Source: Octopus sinensis (Eukaryota). From it: a stretch of 64,000 nucleotides of DNA. Below are positions 14,952 to 64,000 of the stretch, piece by piece. Where the stretch lies: NCBI RefSeq assembly GCF_006345805.1, contig NC_043021.1:18724001-18788000 (forward strand), read 5' to 3'. The position numbers and the translations under genes were made by a program. The notes under the pieces were generated by a model that saw only the letters and a program-made list of their open reading frames with translations, had not been told where the DNA came from and ran no database searches. The stretch's first letter is position 1, and each line of letters opens with the position of its first letter.

Positions 14952-16749
14952 AACAACTCTAAACGGGAACATATATCTATATTATACACAGATATATATA
15001 AACTAAATATTATATATATATATGTATGTATGTATGTATTCTATATAAAATGTAATATAGAGTATTATATATATATATATAAACACTTATATATATGTAT
15101 GTATTTACTGAGAAAGTGTATGGTAGATGAGGCAATAAAATTTTGGGGAAAACTCGATGAATCGGTATTAATTAAGGTAGAAAGAGGCGAAAACGTGTTG
15201 AGCACTTACTGAATCACGTTGTTGTTCTTGCAATGTCTGTGGAACAGAGGAAACGGAAACGACGAACGATTAAAGTTTGGGATGCAAACGAAATGTACAA
15301 CGTGTGTGGGATGGATGATGTGACCAAGTGGAGCTTAAAATTAAATTCATCTGAAACGAAAAAAAAAATCAGTTTGTGAGGCTTTGTTAAAGTCATTATG
15401 ACATTATAATTGTTAATATTAGTTTAGTAATTAGTTACAAAACAATTGTTAATTGGATTTTAAAACTAAAAACTAAAACCGTACGTATGCAGTGAAACTA
15501 AGTGTTTTTAATATATTTTTACTAAATTGTTATTTTTAACATATTTTTAGTATTAATAAAGAATATTTACGTATAGTATATTTATATTAACATAGTAATT
15601 ATAAAATTGTTAAACTAAAACTTCGTATGCAGAGAAATTTATGAATTTTTTAAAATAGCAATTATCAATAAAAAAAAATAATAATCACGTATTTATGTTA
15701 GTATTGATATTAATTGTAATTATCGTTACCCAGGTAGCAAAACTTCATTATGTGTTCGGTGAAACTAAATTAGTGTTTAATATGATATTAAACTATTAAT
15801 TATTTCTAAAATTTACAGTAATATCAATAAAAATAATCGCGTATATAATATTTATATCCTTACTGTAATTAGTTATAAATATAATATAATCGTTTTTCTT
15901 GGGGTGGGGCGTTAAAACTTCATAAAGTGTACAGTGAAACAATGTTAATATTAACCAAACTATTAATTAAAACTAATATATATTATAGTATTATTATTTT
16001 TTTTAAAAATCATTACGTCTTTTTATACTGGTACAATAATTAATTATAAATATGTTATTTGGGTCGTAAAACTGCAAGTGTGCGTACAATTGAACTAAAT
16101 TAATGTCAAATCAATATTTACCAAGATTTGATTGTGAATTAAATGATTGTCATTATGTTATTCTAATATTAGTATTACTGTGGTTTATATTCGAAGTCGT
16201 TATATTATATTAGAATATAAGGGTTAGTTATAAATGTAACCATTATTCGAGTTATAAATAGTTATAAATGTAACCATTATTATTGATAAGACTTTGGTTC
16301 TTTAGTGGCTGTGTGGTAAGTAGCTTGCTTACCAATCACATGGTTCCGGGTTCAGTCCCACTGCGTGGCACCTTGGCTAAGTGTCTTCTACTATAGCCGC
16401 GGGCCGACCAAAGCCTTGTGAGTGGATTTGGTAGACAGAAACTGAAAGAAGCCCGTTGTATATATGTATATATGTGTGTGTTTGTGTGTCTGTGTTTATC
16501 CCCCCACCATCGCTTGACAACCGATGCTGGTGAGTTTACGTCCCAGTAACTTAGTGGTTCGGCAAAAGTGAGTGATAGAATAAGTACTAGGCTTGCAAAG
16601 AATAAGTCCTGGGGTTGATTTGCTCGACTAAAGGCGGTGCTCCAGCATGGCCACAGTCAAAAAAGAGTGTATATATATATATAGTTGTTAATCCAACAAG
16701 AAAACAGAAAAAAAGAGAAAAAAACACAGCAACGCAGGACGTGGAACAA

Positions 16750-17110
16750 TTAGCACCTGATGCTTTGGGAACCAGACAAAAATTACTGCAGCTTGACTGG
16801 GATGAGTTACCCAACCCTCCATATTCACCAGATATTGCTCCTTCGGATTTCCACTTATTCAGGTCTTTGCAGAATAGTCTTAATGGTAAAAATTTCAATT
16901 CCTTGGATGATGTAAAAAGATACCTTGATGAATTCTTTGCCATGAAACCCCCTCAATTCTGGGAAGGGGTCATTTTTAAGTTAACGGAAAGATGGAGATG
17001 CATTGTGTAACAAAATGGTTCATATTTGGTTGATTAAAAATGTAATGGCAAGTATTTATTGACCTTTTTCTTTCCTTTAAAAATTGGCACAAACTTTCTG
17101 GACAACCCTG
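16750..17110 (+). pseudogene. mariner (DD34D) transposase 3' fragment with right TIR
   Basis: LPNPPYSPDIAPSDFHLFRSLQN motif; ends ...GACAACCCTG followed by TA. Confidence 0.9.
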
Positions 17111-27975: not shown

Positions 27976-28388
27976 TACAGTTCTATATTTAAGAGATGAG
28001 GAATTTTGCACATTATTTACATTCGACGACTATTTGTCCTCATCTTGTTTGTTGTTGATACAACGTTTTAGCTGATATACCCTCCAGCCTTCTTCGGGTG
28101 TCGTGGGGAAATTTCGAGCCTGGGTTCTCGCCCACGGGCATATTGCGTAGTGGTTAAGAGCGCGGGCTACTAACCCCAAGATTCCGAGTTCGATTCCAAG
28201 CAGTGACCTGAACAATAATAATAATAAGAAGAAGAAGAAGAAAAATAACATCGAAGACTACCTTAAGAATGAGGACCCAGGTTCGAAATTTCCCCAAAGA
28301 CACCTGAAGAAGGCTGGAGGGTATATCAGCCGAAACGTTGTGTTAACAACAAACAAGATGAGGACAAATATCTGTCGAATGTAAATAA
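27976..28388 (+). mobile_element. Family H SINE (28131-28388) preceded by an inverted copy of its 3' ~155 bp
   Basis: tRNA head 28143-28208, (AAT/AAG)n, then tail. 27976-28129 is the reverse complement of the tail. Confidence 0.9.
28299..28344 (+). ncRNA. Minimal type I hammerhead ribozyme (Penelope-like-element type)
   Basis: Stem I gacac/gtgtt; core CTGAAGA+A; stem II ggctg/cagcc; GAAA; palindromic ACGT stem III; GUU cleavage triplet ending at 28339. Confidence 0.8.
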
Positions 28389-45652: not shown

Positions 45653-45755
45653 ATGAAAATAGTAATGCAATACGAGAGTATTGCCTTCCAGTAAAGGATA
45701 GCCCGTGAGGGTAAAATTATACATAAAAGTAAATAAATGGTACAACGAAGCACGG
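45653..45755 (-). mobile_element. Fragment spanning the end-to-start junction of the 48807-49224 hammerhead unit
   Basis: Minus strand reads gtgcttcgttgtaccatttatttacttttatgtata-attttaccct-cacgggctatcctttactgga..ttgcatt. Confidence 0.85.
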
Positions 45756-46159
45756 AAGCCAATATATATATATGCAATGGGCTTCTTTCAGTTTCAATCT
45801 TACAGTGTAGTCACAAGGCTTTGGTTGACCCAGGGCTTCGTTAGAAGACACTAGCCCAAGGTGCCATGCAGCAGGCCTGAACCTGGAGCCATAAGGTTGG
45901 GAAGCAAATTTCTTACCACACAGCCATGCCTGCATGTGAAGAAATTTCAAATAAAATCAAAATTAATTGGCTAAAAGTAATGTCTCAAAAAAAAAAAAGG
46001 GTTGTGGTTTTTGTAATCACACAAAACTGCTATAGTGAAGAAGTTTAGAATACAAAAAATGAAATTTTTAAAAGGCCATAACGATTTCATTATTAAATGC
46101 ACGAGAAAATGGCAGTATACACGCACATATACATATGTACATATATACATATATTTATA

Positions 46160-46425
46160 CATGATGGCTTCCCCCTCGTTATCGAGTATGGCCATTGCAC
46201 GAAGCTTAACTGTTATTGGTGCTGTGATCGAATGTGACTTTTTAGCCTAGCTAAAGATCTACGATGTCTTGTACAAAATTGGCAGCTAAAACCTTTACCG
46301 GTAATAGCCGGCAGTAGTTGTAACTGGGCTTCATGTACCTTTGCATGTCGTTTAAGTCCTTCTGCCGAATTACACTCTCTTCCACATGCCCGACAGATAT
46401 GATTAGTATGGTGTGTAACACCACC
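46160..46425 (-). pseudogene. 3' end of an RTE/RTEX-type LINE with two C-terminal C2H2 fingers
   Basis: CRACGRECNSAEGLKRHAKVH and CQFCTRHRRSLARLKSHIRSQH, then a short 3'UTR ending ...ATACTCGATAACGAGGGGGAAGCCATCAT. Confidence 0.65.
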
Positions 46426-46924
46426 TCCTTTTTTTTTTTTTTTTTTTTTTTGTGCTACCGGCACAGAACCCATTCGAGGCGGGGTTGGCATCGGTCACGT
46501 TCGGATGGTGCCTTTTATGTGCCACCGGCACAGAAGCCAGTGGAGGCTGCACTGGCGACGGCCACGTTCAGATGGTGCTTTTTATGTGTCACCGGCACAG
46601 GTATCACAACTACTACTGTTTCCATTGATATTTGGTTTGATGTTCATGTACATGCACTTGACTCAACAGGTCTCCTCAAGCACAGCGAGATGTTCCGGGA
46701 TCCCACGATCGGTTGGTGCTTTTTAAGCCAGTCGGGGCGGTGCTGGCATCGGCCATGTTTGGACGTTGCTTTTTATGTGCCACCGGCACAGAAGCCATTC
46801 GAGGCGGGGTTGGCATCGGTCACGTTTGGATGGTGCTTTTTATGTGCCACCGGCACAGAAGCCAGTGGAGGCTGCACTGGCAACGGCCACATTCGGATGG
46901 TGCTTTTTATGTGTCACCGGCACA

Positions 46925-47229
46925 GGTATCACAACTACTGTTTCCATTGATATTTGGTTCGATATTCATGTGCCACCGGCACGGAAGCCATTCGAGGCGG
47001 GGGTTGAGGTATCACAACTACTGTTTCCATTGATATTTGGTTCGATATTCATGTGCCACCGGCACGGAAGCCATTCGAGGCGGGGGTTGAGGTATCACAA
47101 CTACTGTTTCCATTGATATTTGGTTCGATATTCATGTGCCACCGGCACGGAAGCCATTCGAGGCGGGGGTTGAGGTATCACAACTACTGTTTCCATTGAT
47201 ATTTGGTTCGATATTCATGTGCCACCGGC
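46925..47229. repeat. 83-bp tandem repeat (~3.7 copies) inside an RTE 3'UTR
   Basis: Unit starts at 46926, 47009, 47092 and 47175. Confidence 0.9.
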
Positions 47230-47284
47230 GCAGAAGCCAGTCGGGGCGGTGCTGGCATCGGCCACGTATATATAAATATATTGG

Positions 47285-47710
47285 TGAACTTGGTACATAT
47301 AGTTCCCAAGGCTCCAACAATAGCAACAGGTGCAACACTTACCTTTTGAAATGACCACAGGTTTTTTTATTACCTGCTTCAAATTCTCATATCTGACTTA
47401 TTTCCCGTACTCACTCATCACCATGGTATGCAAAATCTATTATTAAACTAGTTTTCTTTTTCCTTCTTATTCACGTCACAATATCCGGCTTTTGGTTTCC
47501 AATTTCACAATCACGCTGGACCATTGCATACCATAGTAACTTTACCTTGTCATTCTCGATTACTCCTCCTGGAGTTTATACATACCATGTCTTTGCTCCT
47601 CTATCCCAATCCATATTTGCTACACAATTCCCAATGAATCATTTTGCACCATTATCAAGGTCTTTTTTTTTATTATATTCCTTTTGAGCCAGCTTCATGT
47701 ACCCACATGA
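47285..47710 (-). pseudogene. Old Dong/R4-clade LINE fragment (restriction-like endonuclease region)
   Basis: Frameshifted peptides IHWELCSKYG, WY..TP..VIENDKVKLLW, QKPDIV, VGALGTI. Confidence 0.75.
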
Positions 47711-47809
47711 TGTATTGGGGTCAAAGTAATTGACTTTTCCACCTCCCCTAAGATCGATAGCATTGTGCCAGAGTGTGAAACCATTATCATTATTATTATT
47801 ATTATTATT

Positions 47810-48266
47810 CTATGTTTGACTTTATGTCTGTACAAGTTGGCTCCAAGTCTCACACAGAGACCTCAAGAGACAACAGGTTCGAAGTTCACGTTGTTGTTAT
47901 GCCTAGTGTGCCATATATTTGTTTTTTTTTCTTTTTTGGTGTTGTACTAGTGAATGTCTAATACATAAATTAAAAAAAAAAAAAAAGTTTGTTTTAAACC
48001 TTGGGATTACATAGAGAGTATTTTACGTAGGATATGAGCAGTTCCCATGAGCACTATCTTTTGAATTTCTGCCATTCTGGGGTTTCCTGGTATCTGAGTT
48101 AGGTAGCAATCAGCCCCATTTGCTATCATTCCCAGGGCACCTATGACAACAGGTATTGTTTTAGTCTTCAGCTTCCACATTTTGCTGATTTCTATTTCAA
48201 GATCTTTATATTTGCTCAGTTTTTGGTAGGTCTTGACAGATACATTTATATCGATTGGGACAGTCA

Positions 48267-48268
<2 letters not shown>
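47810..48268 (-). mobile_element. 5'-truncated Dong/R4-clade LINE in a (TAA)n target
   Basis: VPIDINVSVKTYQKLSKYKDLEIEISKMW..PVVIGALG RLE C-terminus, stop at 48007, 3'UTR; (ATT)n on both sides. Confidence 0.85.
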
Positions 48269-48313
<45 letters not shown>

Positions 48314-48445
48314 TTGTTATTCAAATTCTGCCAAGGTCAATTTTGTTTTTCATCCTTTCGGAGTCGATAAATTAAGTACTGGGGTCAATGTAATCGACTG
48401 GTCACTACACATTCTTTATTTTCTCTCCTTGTTTCTTTCCGTGTT

Positions 48446-48483
48446 TCTTTCTGTAGAAGAGCGTAGGCTCGAAATGTTAAAGA
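48446..48483 (+). ncRNA. Hammerhead-like motif with variant core CUGUNGA, in a ~160-bp TA-associated repeat
   Basis: tcttt CTGTAGA a gagc-gtag-gctc GAAA tgtt aaaga. Second copy at 57293-57330; tail-only copy at 8768-8836 (minus). Confidence 0.6.
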
Positions 48484-48806
48484 CTTTTTCACTTCCCGAG
48501 CGTTAAACTAATACATCTGTTGTCTACACCACCTGTCTTCGTCTTTTGTTTTTTGTGAATTCTTGCTATATATATATATATATCATCATCATCATCATCA
48601 TTTAATGTCTGCTTTCCATGCTAGCATGGGTTGGACAATTTGACTGAGGACTGACGAACCAGATGTCTGCACCAGGCTCCAATCTGATCTGGTAGAGTTT
48701 CTAAAGCTGGATGCCCTTTCTAACACCAACCACTCTGAGAGTGTAGTGAGTGTTTTTACGTGTCACCGGCACAAGGGCCAGTCTGGCAGTACTGGCAATG
48801 GCCATG

Positions 48807-49224
48807 CACGGGCTATCCTTTACTGGAAAGCAATACTCTCGTATTGCATTATTATTTTCATTGAAACTCTTCACTGTTCTCGTACTGTTAACGTTTTGGT
48901 GTTCAGACGAGTGTACTGGCATAGATGTGGCAACATTTGAAATATTGTTGAGGTTTATGCAGCTGATGAAGATAAATCAAATATACGTTTGGCAAGCGTA
49001 TTTTGAAAAATCTGAAACCGGTACTGCATTATCCGTTATCTAGGTTTTTCATTTTTCAGATGTTCTTCCTAGAGGTAAGACAATTTTTTTCATGTTTGTT
49101 GCACACACGCATCTTTACTAGTACATACGTAGTGAAGCTATACATTAGCGTCGTATTTATTACGTTCGCTATTTTCCAGTAAATATCGGTGCTTCGTTGT
49201 ACCATTTATTTACTTTTATGTATA
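48807..49224 (+). mobile_element. Retrozyme-like monomer (~428 nt) carrying one hammerhead
   Basis: Non-coding, ends in a TA microsatellite, circularly permuted relative to 45653-45755. Confidence 0.7.
48957..49029 (+). ncRNA. Type I hammerhead ribozyme, canonical core
   Basis: Stem I atgcag/ctgcat; CTGATGA; stem II agat/atct extended by tcaaa(t)atacg/cgtattttga; GAAA; palindromic ACCGGT stem III; GUA triplet ending at 49023. Confidence 0.85.
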
Positions 49225-49875
49225 TATATATATTATATATATATATATATGCTGAGACCCCCTTCGGTCATGACTGACCATGGAATTGAACCTAGAAAGT
49301 TATCCTCCCAGGCACAAGTCCGGGCAAGGTTGTTTATGGAAGACCAGCAGTCGCCCATGCACACCAGCCTCCCCTCTCCACGCCACCAGTGTTATCCAAG
49401 GGAAAGGCAAAGGGGCCGATATAGCTTGGCACCTGTGACGCCACAACTCATTTCTACAGCTGAGTGAACTGGAGCAACGTGAAACAAAGTGTCTTGCTCA
49501 AGAACATAATATGCAGCTCGGTCCAGGAATCGAACTCACAACCTCAAGATCATAAGCTCGATGCACTAACCACTGAGCTATGCACCTTCACATTCAGAGG
49601 AGAGTATATTAAATAAAATCATAATTAACCAATCCACCCCCTGTATATATTCAGTAACCAAAGACTCTTTTATTCTATATTCTCTTAACCCCCTCATACC
49701 AACCTTTAACAACCCTAACTTCATAAATCCAAAAATTATTTGTAAACCCAAATTTTAACCTGCATTTTTCATTTTCTCTTCAAAAATAATATGAAAAGGA
49801 ATGAAAAACCTTATTGATATTCCTGTAATTTAGAATATCTGGTGTGAGCAAATAAATGTATGACTGCTACCATTA

Positions 49876-51342: not shown

Positions 51343-51690
51343 AAAATTATGACGCAAAAATTTATGGCAAAAATTATGGCACAAATTATGACAAAAATTA
51401 TGACAAAATTATGATACAAATTATGACATGACAAAAATTATGACAAAAAATTGACAAATTATGACAAAAATTGTGACACAAATTATGACACATTACGACA
51501 AAAACTATGGAACAAAAAATTATGACACAAATTATGACATGACAAAAATTATGACAAAAAATTGACAAATTACGACAAAAATTGTGACACAAATTATGAC
51601 ATATTACAACAAAAATCTATGGAACAAAAAATTATGACACAAATTATGACAAAAATTATGACAAAATTACGACAAAAATTATGACACAAA
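51343..51690. repeat. Minisatellite of 11-12-bp AAATTATGAC(AC/AA) units
   Basis: Direct reading, with an internal larger duplication. Confidence 0.9.
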
Positions 51691-51904
51691 ATACTGGCTA
51701 AAAGACATCAAGTGCTCAGTGGACCACAAGTATAATAAAACTGAGACAGTTTCTTAGAAAGGGTCCAAGGACCACTGATAACATCTGTGTCCCACATGTA
51801 GACCATAGTTGATCTGTTCCTGATCCTTGCTTTAAATTATATTTTTAAAAGTCTGCAATGCCCCTAAACCATCATTTCTTAACTGTGACTCCCAGTGCTG
51901 AATG

Positions 51905-56905: not shown

Positions 56906-57438
56906 TTTAATTTATACAGAGCCCGCTAACATTTTGTGACATCACCAACCGTTTGCTCAGTGTCAAGCTGTATCAGATTGTGTCGGATTGATAGATTTTC
57001 AATCTGGCATTCAGTGACCAGGAGCCTGTTGCTGCTGGAACACAACTTACACTGAAATCACGTGATGCAAGAGTTCCGTCTGCCAGCACTGATGAAATTT
57101 TCATCTGCTGATTTAATCTGTACTTTTTATGGCACTTAATGTTCATTCGAGATGCTTTCTCAGGATGGTTACTGTAGTATATAGTGTTGAAAACGACACT
57201 TTCAAGTTATGTTGAATGTGCTAATTAATGTAACATGTGGAACTGTTAATTACAACACGTTTTTTTCTCTCTCCAGTTTTTTAACTCTTGTCCCTTTCTG
57301 TCGAAGAGCATAGGCTCAAAACGTCAAGGATTTTCCCATTTTTCCCAAGTGTCAAATTAACATACCTGCTTGTTGTTCCCTCACCTGTCTCTGTCTTTTG
57401 CTTTCTGTACATTTGAACTACTATATATATTATATATA

Positions 57439-59689: not shown

Positions 59690-60952
59690 TTAGGTCATCC
59701 CATAAATAATGTGTTTTTTTTATATTTCTTTTATTTTTCAAAATTAAGATAAACAAAGTTCTTTTTTAATTTAAAATATACTCTCCTTCATTTTCTACAA
59801 TGCTCTTCCATCTATCTACTAGACTTGCAAGGCCCCTATTCCAAAATTCACTTGTCCGTGATGAAAAATACTCCTCCAGTACTGTTCTGGCCTTGTCTAC
59901 AGAATTCAGATTTTCTCTGTCCAAATGATTTTGAAGACTGTGGAATAAACGATAATGAGATGGGACAATGTCTACCAAATATGGTGGGTGGGGCATTGTT
60001 TCCCATTCAAACTGCTCCAGCCATTGGAATGTCATCCTCGCTGTATGTAGCCAAGCATTATCCTGATGGAAGAACACCTTTCATCTTGAAACCAAAGATT
60101 GTCATTTTCCTTCTAGCACTGACTTAAGCTGCTCAAGCTGTTCACAGTAGATCTCCTTTCTTATCATTTGGTTTGGGTTTAAAAGTTCAAAGTGGACTAA
60201 ACCTTTCATATCCCACCAAATAGATAACAACACCTTATATGGGTGAAGACCTGGGGTGCTGGTGTTTCTCCTTTCCCTACCCACAGTCTTCAGCAGTTGA
60301 CATTTTTATAGAGAACCCATTTCTCATCACCAGTCACTATTCAGTCTGAAAAAAGATTTATTTGTGAGACATGACAGCAAAGAGAACACTCTCGCTGTCT
60401 GTGTGCGTTTAGACTCGGAAAGTTTGTGAGGAACCCATCGACCCAATTTTCTGATTTTTCCAATGGCACGCAGGTATTGATAAATGTTGAATGACCAAAT
60501 TCAAGCTTCTTTGCTAGTTCCCCAACAGTTATGATGGGATTTTGTTCCACTAAGGTTTGCAGGATGTCCTCATCAAGCTCTACAGATCTTCCAGGACGAG
60601 GGTCATCTTCTAGGCTGTAGTTTCCAGTTCAGAGCTTCTGGAACCACTGCTGACACTGGCTGACGCTTATTGTCTAATCCCCATATACTGCATTAATATT
60701 CAATGCACTTTCTGTTGCATCGTTGCCTTTGTTCAACTCATAAAGCAAAGTATGCCGAAAATGCTCTTTTGTCACTTCCATTATAACTTTGAAAAAATAA
60801 CTGTAAAAATTGAACTGCCCTCTTCAAAACTTGCACTAAGAATAAGTACAAGGTAAAATTACTACCTTTTTTTATAGCAAGTTGATACCATCCACCTCTG
60901 ACTTTTAGTTCATGTAATTGAAAAAAACCACATGATTTATAGGATGACCCAA
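59690..60952 (-). mobile_element. Full-length decayed mariner element (transposase pseudogene 59766-60781)
   Basis: TIRs TTAGGTCATCC/GGATGACCCAA with TA flanks; motifs VTGDEKW, KVLLSIWWD, HQDNA, HPPY..DIVPS; multiple frameshifts. Confidence 0.92.
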
Positions 60953-60956
60953 TATA

Positions 60957-62225
60957 CAGGGGTTGGACAAAATAATGGAAACACCAAGCATCAGAGCAAT
61001 ATAATTTTGAAATATCTGCAAAACCATCAAAAGCTTGTTTATTTTAATGTTTTTTGATTTATTATTAGTGTTGCTTAATATGTTTTACTAAAATTGCTGT
61101 TTCTTTTCAGATATCACCAGAAAAGGTAATTAAAATTCATTAAAATGACAGATCTGTTGGACTTTCAAAGAGGTCAAATTGTTGGTGCTCATATGGCAGG
61201 TGCTAGTGTAACAAAAACAGCCGAAATGCTTGGTGTATCAAGAAGTACTGTCTCAAAAGTAATGACAGCCTTTGAGAAAGAGGGAAAAGCCTCCTCGTCA
61301 AAACAAAACTCTGGAAGAAAACCAAAACTTTCAGATAGGGACCGTCAGACTCTTACACGAATTGTTAGAAAGGATCACAAAAGTACAGCTCCCAAAATTA
61401 CTGCAGAGCTTAATGACCACCTTTTAATCCAGTTTTCACAAAAACTATTCACCAGGAGCTGCATAAAGCTGGATTTCAAGGGAAGGCTGCAATCAGAAAA
61501 TCACTAATTTCAAAAACAAACAATGCAAAGCGTTTAGAGTGGAGTAAAAACCTACAGATTTGGTCCCTAGAGCAGTGGAAGAATGTTATTTTCTCAGACG
61601 AGTCATTCTTTACCTTATTTCTGACCACTGGCTGAGTATACATGTGGAGACAGCCAAAAGAAGCATTTAACCAAGATAGTCTTCTTCCAACTGTTAAACA
61701 TGGAGGCGGATCTGTGATGATCTGTGACTATATCTTGGAAATCCACTGGCCCAATGGGTTCCCCTTCTTGGCAGAATTAATAGTGAAGACTCTTTAAGCA
61801 TTTTATCCGATCAAATTCATCCTATGGTTGCAGAACTGTTTCTGGAGGGAAGCGCAATCTTTCAGGATGATAATGCACCAATTCACACTGTTAAAGTTGT
61901 TACTAAATGGCACAAAAAACATTCTAGTAAAGTTGAACATCTTACTTGGCCACCACAGTCTCCAGATCTCAATATTATTGAACATTTATGGTGCATTTTA
62001 GGAAAACAAGTAAGAAGTCGATATCCTCCACTATCATCACTACAAGAACTGGAAACTGTTTTAGCTGAAGAATGGACAAAATTCCTTTGGAAACAATTCA
62101 AACTTTGTACAAGTCCATACCTTGTAGAATTCAAGCTGTGATTACTGCTAAAGGTGGTCTTACCCCATATTAAAATAAATTTATTTGAAATTTTAAGGTG
62201 TTTCCATTATTTTGTCCAACCCCTG
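60957..62225 (+). mobile_element. Full-length Tc1-like element (DD34E transposase pseudogene 61145-~62172)
   Basis: Perfect 29-bp TIRs CAGGGGTTGGACAAAATAATGGAAACACC; paired-like HTH, SGRKPKL, FSDES, FQDDNAP, WPPQSPDLNIIEHLW; frameshifted. Confidence 0.95.
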
Positions 62226-62805: not shown

Positions 62806-63600
62806 CATGAGGCTTGGCTGAGAAGTCCACAGGCTGACCAAGATACTCCCATGAAATGTCACTAGATGAGGTTTATTTTTCAACATAGTCCCTCTTGCGG
62901 TCACGCACTTATTCCATCAGTATTGCATGTGCTTGGGCCTCATTGGTAAAGAAATTTTTATCCTATTGGTCAAAAATATCTTTAATTGCAGATATGACAT
63001 CATCATCATCACCGTGATGCTGGTTCCCAGCCAAATGGTTTTTCATATTGAGGAACAGATGATAATCAGATGGGACCAAATCAGAAAAATAGGGAGACTG
63101 ATCAACTAGTTTGAAGCCACATTCACACACAGCAACCATTGAGACCAAGGACTTATATGCTGAAGCAACTGTCCTGATGAAACAAGACCCCTTTCTTCAG
63201 TTCTGGGCATTTGGTCTTGACAGCTGGGACCAAATCAGAAAAATAGGGAGACTGATCAACTAGTTTGAAGCCACATTCACACACAGCAACCATTGAGACC
63301 AAGAACTTATATGCTGAAGCAACTGTCCTGATGAAACAAGACCCCTTTCTTCAGTTCTGGGCATTTGGTCTTGACAGCTGGGACCAAATCAGAAAAATAG
63401 GGAGACTGATCAACTAGTTTGAAGCCACATTCACACACACAGCAACCATTGAGACCAAGAACTTATATGCTGAAGCAACTGTCCTGATGAAACAAGACCC
63501 CTTTCTTCAGTTCTGGGCATTTGGTCTTGACAGCTTTTCATGACTGCCTGAGCAAGTTGGCATAGTACTTACCATTGAGAACGTGGCCATTTCTACTATA
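62806..63600 (-). pseudogene. mariner transposase 3' half with a 154-bp internal triplication (63071-63534)
   Basis: PYFSDLVPSDYHLFLNMKNHLAG and NGKYYANLLRQ peptides; tandem units start at 63071, 63225 and 63379. Confidence 0.85.
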
Positions 63601-64000
63601 GCCTGAATCCAGAACCTGGAAGTCTGGAAGTAAACTTGTTACCACACAGCCAGACCTGTGCCCTTCATAAACACATAAACATAGAAAGTGCCCCAATTTT
63701 CTCTCAGGATGGTGACAACCAGAAAACACAGGAATAAATCTGCTGGGACATCTCATAATGTCTGATCTTATTCTATTTTTTTTCCACATATTATTGTTGA
63801 GGTGAAGAAAAAGCTTCTTATATTTTTCATCTCCAGAATAACGAAAGGTTTTTGAAACAGGTTATAATTACTCTTATAAAATGTAGGAATTTGTGAAATG
63901 CATTCGCTTGCGAGAAGCGTTGGTAAGGTGAGAGTGACAGGGTATTGATTTTTATGTGACACTACAGAGAACCCAATTTTAGAGTGGAGAGGGATATATT

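What the first reader, a model, noticed from the sequence alone, without database searches (positions are those of the whole stretch)
45653..49224. Circularly permuted ~428-nt hammerhead unit: retrozyme / circular RNA signature
Seen: 48807-49224 begins cacgggctatcctttactgga and ends gtgcttcgttgtaccatttatttacttttatgtata, with a textbook hammerhead at 48957-49029. The copy at 45653-45755 (minus) reads that END, 10 extra nt (attttaccct), then that START contiguously, so the master is circular or tandem with a unit of ~428 nt. Known: animal non-LTR retrozymes are short tandem units with one type I hammerhead that self-process into circRNAs. Inference: a cephalopod retrozyme family. Penelope pseudo-LTR tandem structure is an alternative source of the permutation.
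Basis: partly seen in the sequence, partly recalled or inferred. Interest (0 to 1): 0.85.

Follow-up and report, generated by a model that had tools for sequence, protein, structure and literature searches.

The report
Octopus hammerhead retrozyme-type repeat
A 428-base non-coding repeat of an octopus carries a hammerhead self-cutting-RNA motif and has its end joined to its start in many copies, so it is likely a small parasitic retroelement (a retrozyme) of a kind already known from other animals; whether it cuts itself or makes RNA circles is untested.

Summary
Copy A (48807-49224, +) has a type I hammerhead (core 48963-49023). Copy B (45756-45653, -) reads A's end, 10 nt, then A's start. 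The same end-to-start join is in 4 of 4 public runs laid; all 8 junction rows give a 427-430-nt period. In the two deep runs almost nothing runs on into unlike sequence (share 0 and 0.02), and no protein parent was found. The unit folds as a rod (z -6.3). Helix III is a palindromic ACCGGU, the type reported to work as a dimer. The host is octopus-like. Copies end at two sites about 65 nt apart, each followed by (TA)n, like Penelope ends. Verdict: a non-autonomous, Penelope-type retrozyme-like family; new member of a known kind. Not shown: a two-hammerhead tandem, cleavage, expression, or a circular RNA. The join exists in DNA, so it is not itself evidence of a circle. Retrozyme and Penelope pLTR are probably one origin, not rivals.

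The parts
48807..49224 (+). Copy A: 418 of the 428 nt of the non-coding unit (35% GC, rod-like fold)
   Evidence: MFE -117.1, z -6.26, 0 of 100 shuffles as good; overlapping contigs cover it in all 4 runs
48957..49029 (+). Type I hammerhead motif: helix I 6 bp, CUGAUGA, helix II 4 bp plus long variable extension, GAAA, palindromic ACCGGU (49017-49022), GUA triplet; predicted cut 49023/49024
   Evidence: the only listed core-position variant is A49023C (GUA to GUC), 40 of 48 variant rows shown
49045..49080 (+). Splice-like cassette: pyrimidine tract and AG (49058-49059), ATG-started 15-nt segment (49060-49074), strong donor-like site (GT at 49075); use not shown
   Evidence: the only such acceptor-donor pair in the window, both strands; only listed substitution in 49026-49092 is A49071G
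49217..49250 (+). (TA)n tract at the 3' end of copy A (first preferred end, 201 nt after the predicted cut)
   Evidence: X13 pieces leave the unit at 49230-49233
45653..45756 (-). Copy B: 104-nt 5'-truncated copy = A 49186-49224, 10-nt linker, A 48807-48861; lies between two (TA)n tracts; its 3' end is the second preferred end, about 266 nt after the cut
   Evidence: loose ends at 48858 run into (TA)n in X13 and X16
45708..45717 (-). 10-nt linker absent from copy A that closes the 428-nt period
   Evidence: variants of it in 8 rows of table 5c, 4 of 4 runs

Best explanation
This is a multi-copy, non-coding 428-nt repeat family of an octopus whose end is joined to its start and which carries one type I hammerhead motif; it is likely a retrozyme-type parasite of Penelope-like retrotransposons, predicted to be cut out of head-to-tail transcripts by paired hammerheads, likely closed into a rod-shaped circle, and likely copied back into (TA)n tracts by a Penelope reverse transcriptase. 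Shown: the period, the motif, many variant copies, two recurrent 3' ends at (TA)n, and no detectable coding part. Inferred steps: (1) read-through of tandem copies gives a multimer RNA; (2) two hammerheads pair through the palindromic ACCGGU and cut at 49023/49024; (3) a host ligase closes the monomer, in which the core is predicted to be mispaired and so protected from re-cutting; (4) a Penelope RT-endonuclease nicks AT-rich DNA and starts inside the RNA at one of two sites (about +201 and +263 to +266 from the cut), then copies backwards and usually falls off early. Copy A would be an almost full turn from the first site, and copy B a 104-nt product from the second. The permutation then comes from internal priming on a repeating template, not from random opening of a circle.
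For: Join 49224 to 48807 with 9-15 letters between in 4 of 4 runs, 8 rows, period 427-430. Overlapping contigs of X1 and X3 cross 48861 and (X1, X16) the hammerhead, and X13 record 10 covers 48825-49233 with 22 other letters, so the order in A is not private to A. Share running on into unlike sequence: 0 (X1, 3627 contigs laid) and 0.02 (X3, 1144). No Pfam family on 4 frames of the unit; only a chance bacterial Ig hit among 1.84 billion proteins. Fold z -6.26; 1 of 22 background tiles, a TA-rich one, scored lower. No listed variant in CUGAUGA, GAAA or ACCGGU, against 9 substitutions and 4 indel places in 48983-49013; the cut triplet varies GUA/GUC (40 of 48 rows shown). ACCGGU is self-complementary (duplex -8.3 kcal/mol), like the palindromic helix III reported to need a dimer (PMC4209133; PMC7229834). 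Core C3-U4-G5 is predicted to pair with 49019-49021 at p 0.97 in the monomer. Two 3' ends at (TA)n and two opposite-strand joints, each in both X1 and X3, match the Penelope tail, AT-rich targets and inverted truncated copies (PMC11167929; PMC8557442).
Against: No record holds two hammerheads in tandem: no listed piece spans the whole stretch, and the window's two copies are inverted and 3 kb apart. Summed depth falls about 54-fold (X1) and 22-fold (X3) from the 3' part to the middle of the unit. That fits mostly truncated, dispersed copies rather than long arrays, though this depth is no copy number and alignment breaks add to it. The hammerhead departs from the canon: A-U at 10.1-11.1, loop 2 replaced by a 36-nt extension, and a common T49013C variant that breaks that pair. 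Variants spare the predicted fold only marginally (9 of 40 break a pair, null mean 13.4, P 0.05). In Xenopus 8 of 9 predicted retrozyme dimers did not cleave, and the Anolis Penelope hammerhead was dispensable for insertion in vitro. 222 loose ends and 4848 pieces were not shown, and one branch at 49081 in X3 (8 contigs) is unexplained.
Confidence: 0.6

Rival explanations
1. Same non-coding mini-element and same Penelope helper, but the template is a linear, uncut head-to-tail read-through RNA. The hammerhead is an inherited pLTR part that cuts weakly or only with protein, and no circle accumulates.
For: Everything seen in DNA follows equally from a linear tandem template. In the Anolis Poseidon element uncut RNA was the main substrate and no reads began at the cut site (PMC11167929). 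Here the core is predicted mispaired and helix II is atypical. Copy ends fall at two fixed sites, neither at the cut.
Against: Whole-unit rod fold with the hammerhead at its tip (z -6.26), as reported for retrozyme circles. Core letters show no listed variant while the helix II extension varies. Helix I of 6 bp and helix II of 4 bp are the canonical sizes, not the minimal PLE type.
Confidence: 0.27
2. The copies are ends (pseudo-LTR plus tail) of a multi-kilobase coding Penelope-like element, and the 428-nt period comes from an internally deleted derivative or partial tandems.
For: Penelope-type marks: hammerhead, splice-like sites with an ATG, (TA)n targets, two 3' ends, inverted joints. X3 shows a branch right after the donor-like site at 49081 (8 contigs, median 62 nt, agreement 0.61). 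Logan contigs are short and could hide a rare coding parent. Octopus vulgaris has recently active Penelope families (PMC13282606).
Against: The sequence upstream of the hammerhead is the same as the sequence downstream of the END join, which a long ORF-bearing element does not allow. Share running on unlike is 0 and 0.02 in the deep runs. No protein match (one search is weak evidence by the tool's own note). The X3 branch may instead rejoin 48807 as a shorter unit.
Confidence: 0.1
3. A DNA-level satellite or a chance or assembly artefact, with no RNA stage.
For: The window is mostly repeats and microsatellites, and Rfam support is below the gathering score.
Against: The join recurs with different letters in 4 of 4 runs from two organism labels. 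Copies are dispersed and truncated at one end. The motif scan found nothing in 18 of 20 shuffles.
Confidence: 0.03

Closest known systems
Metazoan non-LTR retrozymes (Cervera and de la Pena 2020, PMC7229834; sections 13, 14, 17 and passages read; supplement not readable), nearest the mussel Mytilus 350-390-bp repeats
   Same: Non-coding unit within 150-450 bp, GC 35%, one type I hammerhead with 6-bp helix I and 4-bp helix II, self-paired fold, mollusc host, co-existing Penelope-type hammerhead repeats; helix III like axolotl HHR_Amex1 (one pair plus palindromic tetraloop).
   Different: 428 nt is above the 170-400 nt given for invertebrate circles. Loop 2 is replaced by a 36-nt extension, and the monomer core is predicted mispaired. 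Copies here look mostly dispersed and truncated. Arrays, cleavage and circles are not shown. No cephalopod is named in the main text.
Retrozymes as non-autonomous derivatives of Penelope pLTRs (Li, Clavereau and Pollet, bioRxiv 10.64898/2026.07.22.740005; parts 1-3 of 5 read; supplements closed)
   Same: Type I hammerhead in a short repeat; monomer proportion ranges from 0 to 1 between families; proposed mobilisation by Penelope enzymes.
   Different: That work covers 31 vertebrates, 3 insects and a coral, and requires two consecutive hammerhead-bearing units to call a family active. That criterion could not be tested here. No parent PLE was identified for this family.
Penelope/Poseidon pLTR (PAc of Anolis, PMC11167929, passages and section 3 part 2 read; PLE hammerheads, PMC4209133, parts 1-2 read)
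   Same: Hammerhead upstream of two internal 3' ends (optional tail), AT-rich targets, inverted truncated copies, splice sites near the hammerhead.
   Different: No RT or GIY-YIG ORF here. The spacing of the two ends is about 65 nt against a 30-40-bp tail. The hammerhead lacks the unpaired base plus G10.1-C11.1 pattern of minimal PLE hammerheads.
Non-autonomous Chlamys elements such as MRC1 (PMC8557442, passages read)
   Same: Non-autonomous Penelope-type elements with head-to-tail insertions and microsatellite targets.
   Different: Green-algal, of the N-terminal endonuclease clade, which mostly lacks hammerheads.

Membership tests
Metazoan non-LTR retrozyme | Type I hammerhead in the unit | tested here: met
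   core complete, Rfam HH9 E 0.0074 but below the gathering score
Metazoan non-LTR retrozyme | Short (150-450 bp), low-GC, non-coding unit | tested here: met
   427-430 nt, GC 0.35, no protein family or relative
Metazoan non-LTR retrozyme | Head-to-tail organisation (end joined to start in the genome) | tested here: met
   copy B; join in 4 of 4 runs
Metazoan non-LTR retrozyme | At least two consecutive units, each with a complete hammerhead | tested here: inconclusive
   none in the window; contigs too short, no listed piece spans the stretch; no genome held
Metazoan non-LTR retrozyme | Highly self-paired predicted structure | tested here: met
   z -6.26, 60% of bases paired; background
Metazoan non-LTR retrozyme | Loop 1-loop 2 tertiary contacts of canonical hammerheads | tested here: inconclusive
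   loop 2 is replaced by a variable 36-nt extension; mussel retrozymes also lack most contact residues
Metazoan non-LTR retrozyme | Self-cleavage of the transcript | not testable with these tools
   needs an in vitro assay
Metazoan non-LTR retrozyme | Expression as monomeric circular RNA | not testable with these tools
   only contigs were available, which cannot show RNA ends, strand or level
Autonomous Penelope-like element | ORF with RT and GIY-YIG endonuclease | tested here: not met
   longest open frames in the unit are 78 and 68 aa, no Pfam match; no such ORF recognised by eye among the window's 97 ORFs of 100 aa or more (these were not all scanned)
Penelope-mobilised (non-autonomous) element | Two 3' ends (optional tail), AT-rich or microsatellite target, 5' truncation, inverted copies | tested here: met
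   ends at 49224-49233 and 48858-48861 into (TA)n, few copies seen per end; opposite-strand joints 48989/49161 and 49045/49175 in X1 and X3, which a self-complementary repeat could also produce
Penelope-mobilised (non-autonomous) element | Sequence similarity to the pLTR of an autonomous partner | not testable with these tools
   no genome or repeat library held; no similarity to the window's other hammerhead repeats
Plant LTR retrozyme | Type III hammerhead in paired LTRs | tested here: not met
   the hammerhead is type I and single

The most novel reading that the evidence does not exclude
An expressed, viroid-like 428-nt rod circle of octopuses that still carries the Penelope pLTR's working parts (dimer-only hammerhead, splice acceptor, 15-nt ATG mini-exon, splice donor, two internal priming sites). 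It would be a caught-in-transition link between Penelope elements and retrozymes, in which splicing between neighbouring units removes the hammerhead and competes with self-cleavage to decide whether a circle is made.
Probability: 0.1. Interest if true: 0.65.

Novelty: new member of a known kind. Interest (0 to 1): 0.3.

Why it matters
It would extend animal retrozymes to cephalopods. I found no paper describing one (searches; the supplements of PMC7229834 and of the 2026 preprint could not be read). The two fixed ends at (TA)n tie a retrozyme-type unit to Penelope-style internal priming, which makes the open question of which enzyme moves retrozymes testable in an invertebrate. The kind itself is known from corals, mussels and salamanders, so a specialist would not be very surprised.

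Tried and rejected
No whole genome is held, so copies could not be mapped or counted. Pattern scans found nothing in viral contigs or metagenome contigs, as expected for animal DNA. Runs: no RNA holder listed. X13 and X16 are only guessed to be RNA, so their junctions are not used as evidence of expression or of circles. Rfam: no hit at the gathering threshold, and no hammerhead on 8 kb or 451 nt. P0001, the single hit for the 78-aa frame, is a bacterial Ig-repeat protein at 30% identity and is rejected as chance. The 68-aa frame had no longer relative (weak evidence). My attempt to score the double-hammerhead fold failed because the structure was pseudoknotted, so only the ACCGGU duplex energy is used. 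A single insertion event for copies A and B was considered and judged unlikely: they differ at 3 of 94 shared positions, and 3 kb of more diverged repeats lie between them. No target-site duplication was seen at either copy. A-to-G places are no more frequent in the guessed RNA runs (4, 7) than in X1 and X3 (8, 8), so there is no sign of editing. No tRNA gene in the window. Earlier findings: nothing by sequence, by place, or for the first word search.
Full report
1. Observation. Both stretches are as described. blastn of the window against itself matches A 48807-48861 to 45707-45653 (96.4% of 55 nt, E 1e-20) and A 49186-49224 to 45756-45718 (97.4% of 39 nt, E 5e-13). These are the only other copies in the 64 kb. 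The 10-nt linker is at 45717-45708. The hammerhead has helix I 48957-48962/49024-49029, CUGAUGA 48963-48969, helix II 48970-48973/49010-49013 with a 36-nt extension, GAAA, ACCGGU and a GUA triplet, with the cut predicted at 49023/49024. My scan gave 2 hits in the window and none in 18 of 20 shuffles. Rfam aligns the core to Hammerhead_HH9 at 19.7 bits (E 0.0074, gathering score 52) only on a 131-nt stretch; searches gave no hammerhead.

2. Host. A repeat-derived 86-aa frame 540 nt upstream of copy A has its 17 best hits, of 664, in Octopus bimaculoides at 76-91% identity. The host is therefore an octopus or a close relative; the species was not determined.

3. The family elsewhere. Of 24 runs listed, 20 hold part of the unit, from 10 studies and 4 organism labels; the best holder may be the window's own source. 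I laid 4 of them (X1, X13 and X16 of organism A, X3 of organism C), with 3627, 1144, 9 and 65 contigs laid for X1, X3, X13 and X16. The end-to-start join appears in all 4, in 8 rows with different linker letters, and gives a period of 427-430 nt. Contigs also cross 48861 (X1 records 1-2, X3 records 24-25) and the hammerhead (X1 records 3-4, X16 record 16), and X13 record 10 covers 48825-49233. Overlapping pieces thus go round the whole period. No listed piece spans the whole stretch, so no dimer is shown. The share that runs on into unlike sequence is 0 in X1 and 0.02 in X3 (0.49 and 0.19 in the shallow X13 and X16). 222 loose ends and 4848 pieces were not displayed. Because the join is in DNA, seeing it in runs guessed to be RNA says nothing about circles.

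4. Coding. The longest open frames are 78 and 68 aa. Four frames of the unit gave no Pfam family. The 78-aa frame gave one chance hit among 1.84 billion proteins, and the 68-aa frame no longer relative (weak evidence).

5. Structure. The 418 nt fold into a branched rod with the hammerhead at its tip (-117.1 kcal/mol, z -6.26, 0 of 100 shuffles). Only 1 of 22 background tiles, a TA-rich one, had a lower z. Of 40 listed variants (8 more not shown), 9 break a predicted pair against 13.4 expected (P 0.05, borderline). Two pairs could be compensatory (48913/49124 and 48973/49010), with phase unknown. No listed variant touches CUGAUGA, GAAA or ACCGGU, and the triplet varies GUA/GUC (13-22% of depth in X1 and X3). 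The stretch 48983-49013 has 9 substitutions and 4 indel places. Against a fully canonical ribozyme: the 10.1-11.1 pair is A-U, T49013C is common and breaks it, and the monomer is predicted to pair C3-U4-G5 with 49019-49021 (p 0.97). ACCGGU is self-complementary (-8.3 kcal/mol). PMC4209133 describes such a helix III as inactive alone and active in a tandem dimer.

6. Ends. Copy A ends at 49224 in (TA)n, and X13 pieces leave the unit at 49230-49233. Copy B ends at the equivalent of 48861 in (TA)n, and loose ends at 48858 run into (TA)n in X13 and X16. These sites are about +201 and +263 to +266 from the cut. Few copies were seen per end. Summed depth is highest just before the ends and lowest in the middle (about 54-fold in X1, 22-fold in X3). 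This fits 3'-anchored, 5'-truncated copies, but it is no copy number and alignment breaks contribute. Two opposite-strand joints occur in both X1 and X3. The Anolis Poseidon protein nicks AT-rich DNA and starts reverse transcription inside its RNA, at two sites that define the optional tail (PMC11167929). Partial tandems, inverted truncated copies and microsatellite targets are Penelope marks (PMC8557442). The 5' end of A abuts a cut-off copy of an abundant repeat at 48806, and no target-site duplication is visible. An acceptor, a 15-nt ATG segment and a donor lie at 49045-49080, the only such pair in the window; Penelope pLTRs carry introns. Their use is untested. In X3, 8 contigs branch at 49081 and 6 arrive at 48807 from unlike sequence. 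Their consensus ends overlap by 6 letters, which would give a shorter unit of about 330 nt (low agreement, inference); the branch could also lead to a longer parent.

7. Mechanism. Most likely (0.6): tandem read-through, dimeric hammerhead cleavage, ligation to a rod circle, and Penelope-driven copying from two internal sites into (TA)n. Every RNA step is inferred from PMC7229834 and PMC11167929. The main rival (0.27) is the same element moving through an uncut linear multimer with no circle: the Anolis hammerhead was dispensable in vitro, and 8 of 9 Xenopus dimers did not cleave. The end of a long coding Penelope element (0.1) fits poorly, because the sequence before the hammerhead is the same as that after the END join. 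An artefact (0.03) is contradicted.

8. Comparison. It works like a metazoan non-LTR retrozyme. It meets the tests of size, GC, non-coding nature, type I hammerhead, head-to-tail join and self-pairing. The two-hammerhead tandem is inconclusive, and cleavage and circles could not be tested; no defining feature failed. It is not an autonomous Penelope element and not a plant LTR retrozyme.

9. Novelty. Searches for retrozyme with octopus (2 papers listed, neither title on an octopus retrozyme), hammerhead ribozyme with octopus (4 listed), Penelope with octopus and a broad cephalopod search (uninformative) found no description. The O. vulgaris repeat paper PMC13282606 has no occurrence of ribozyme or hammerhead (passages), and PMC7229834 has none of octopus or cephalopod in its main text. 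Its supplement, and that of the preprint, could not be read and might list a cephalopod. The library lacks most subscription papers. Earlier scan notes report similar elements in other animals; I did not test them. Verdict: real, a new member of a known kind, interest 0.3.

Noticed in passing
window 28267-28388 (+), 28129-28013 (-), 50000-49880 (-), 23592-23486 (-): A second, unrelated hammerhead-bearing repeat family with a minimal Penelope-type motif (cores at 28304 + and 49964 -; extra A after the core). Two copies at 28013-28388 form an inverted pair 138 nt apart, as in Penelope insertions.
   Followed up: partly
window 48415-48562 (+), relative at 57261-57408: A third, degenerate hammerhead-like motif (48451) about 110 nt upstream of a (TA)n end; looks like another Penelope-type 3' end.
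   Followed up: partly
run X3, places 49081 and 48807 (table 7): Loose-end consensus sequences that may join into a shorter variant unit of about 330 nt, or may mark the exit to a longer parent element right after the donor-like site.
   Followed up: no
run X16, place 48948 (table 7): Two contigs leave the unit just upstream of the hammerhead for about 138 nt of unlike sequence that begins with a donor-like motif.
   Followed up: no
window 49038: A 1-nt deletion here is common in the family (about 46% of depth in X1, 28% in X3, all in X13 and X16); it lies just before the stop of the 78-aa frame that runs through the hammerhead.
   Followed up: no
window 48010-48267 (-): 86-aa tail of a LINE-like ORF (its class, Dong/R4-like, is recalled and not tested), annotated many times as small uncharacterised proteins in O. 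bimaculoides. One 85%-identical hit (P0019) is labelled Escherichia coli, probably contamination.
   Followed up: partly
window 51343-51692: AT-rich tandem array with nested 12-, 62- and 111-bp periods.
   Followed up: no
window 46446-47249: 67-bp and 83-bp tandem units of an abundant SINE-like repeat whose copies fill the window.
   Followed up: no
window 16606-17010, 59766-60080, 61130-62141, 63538-63861: Frames that read like Tc1/mariner transposase fragments (recognised by eye, not scanned).
   Followed up: no
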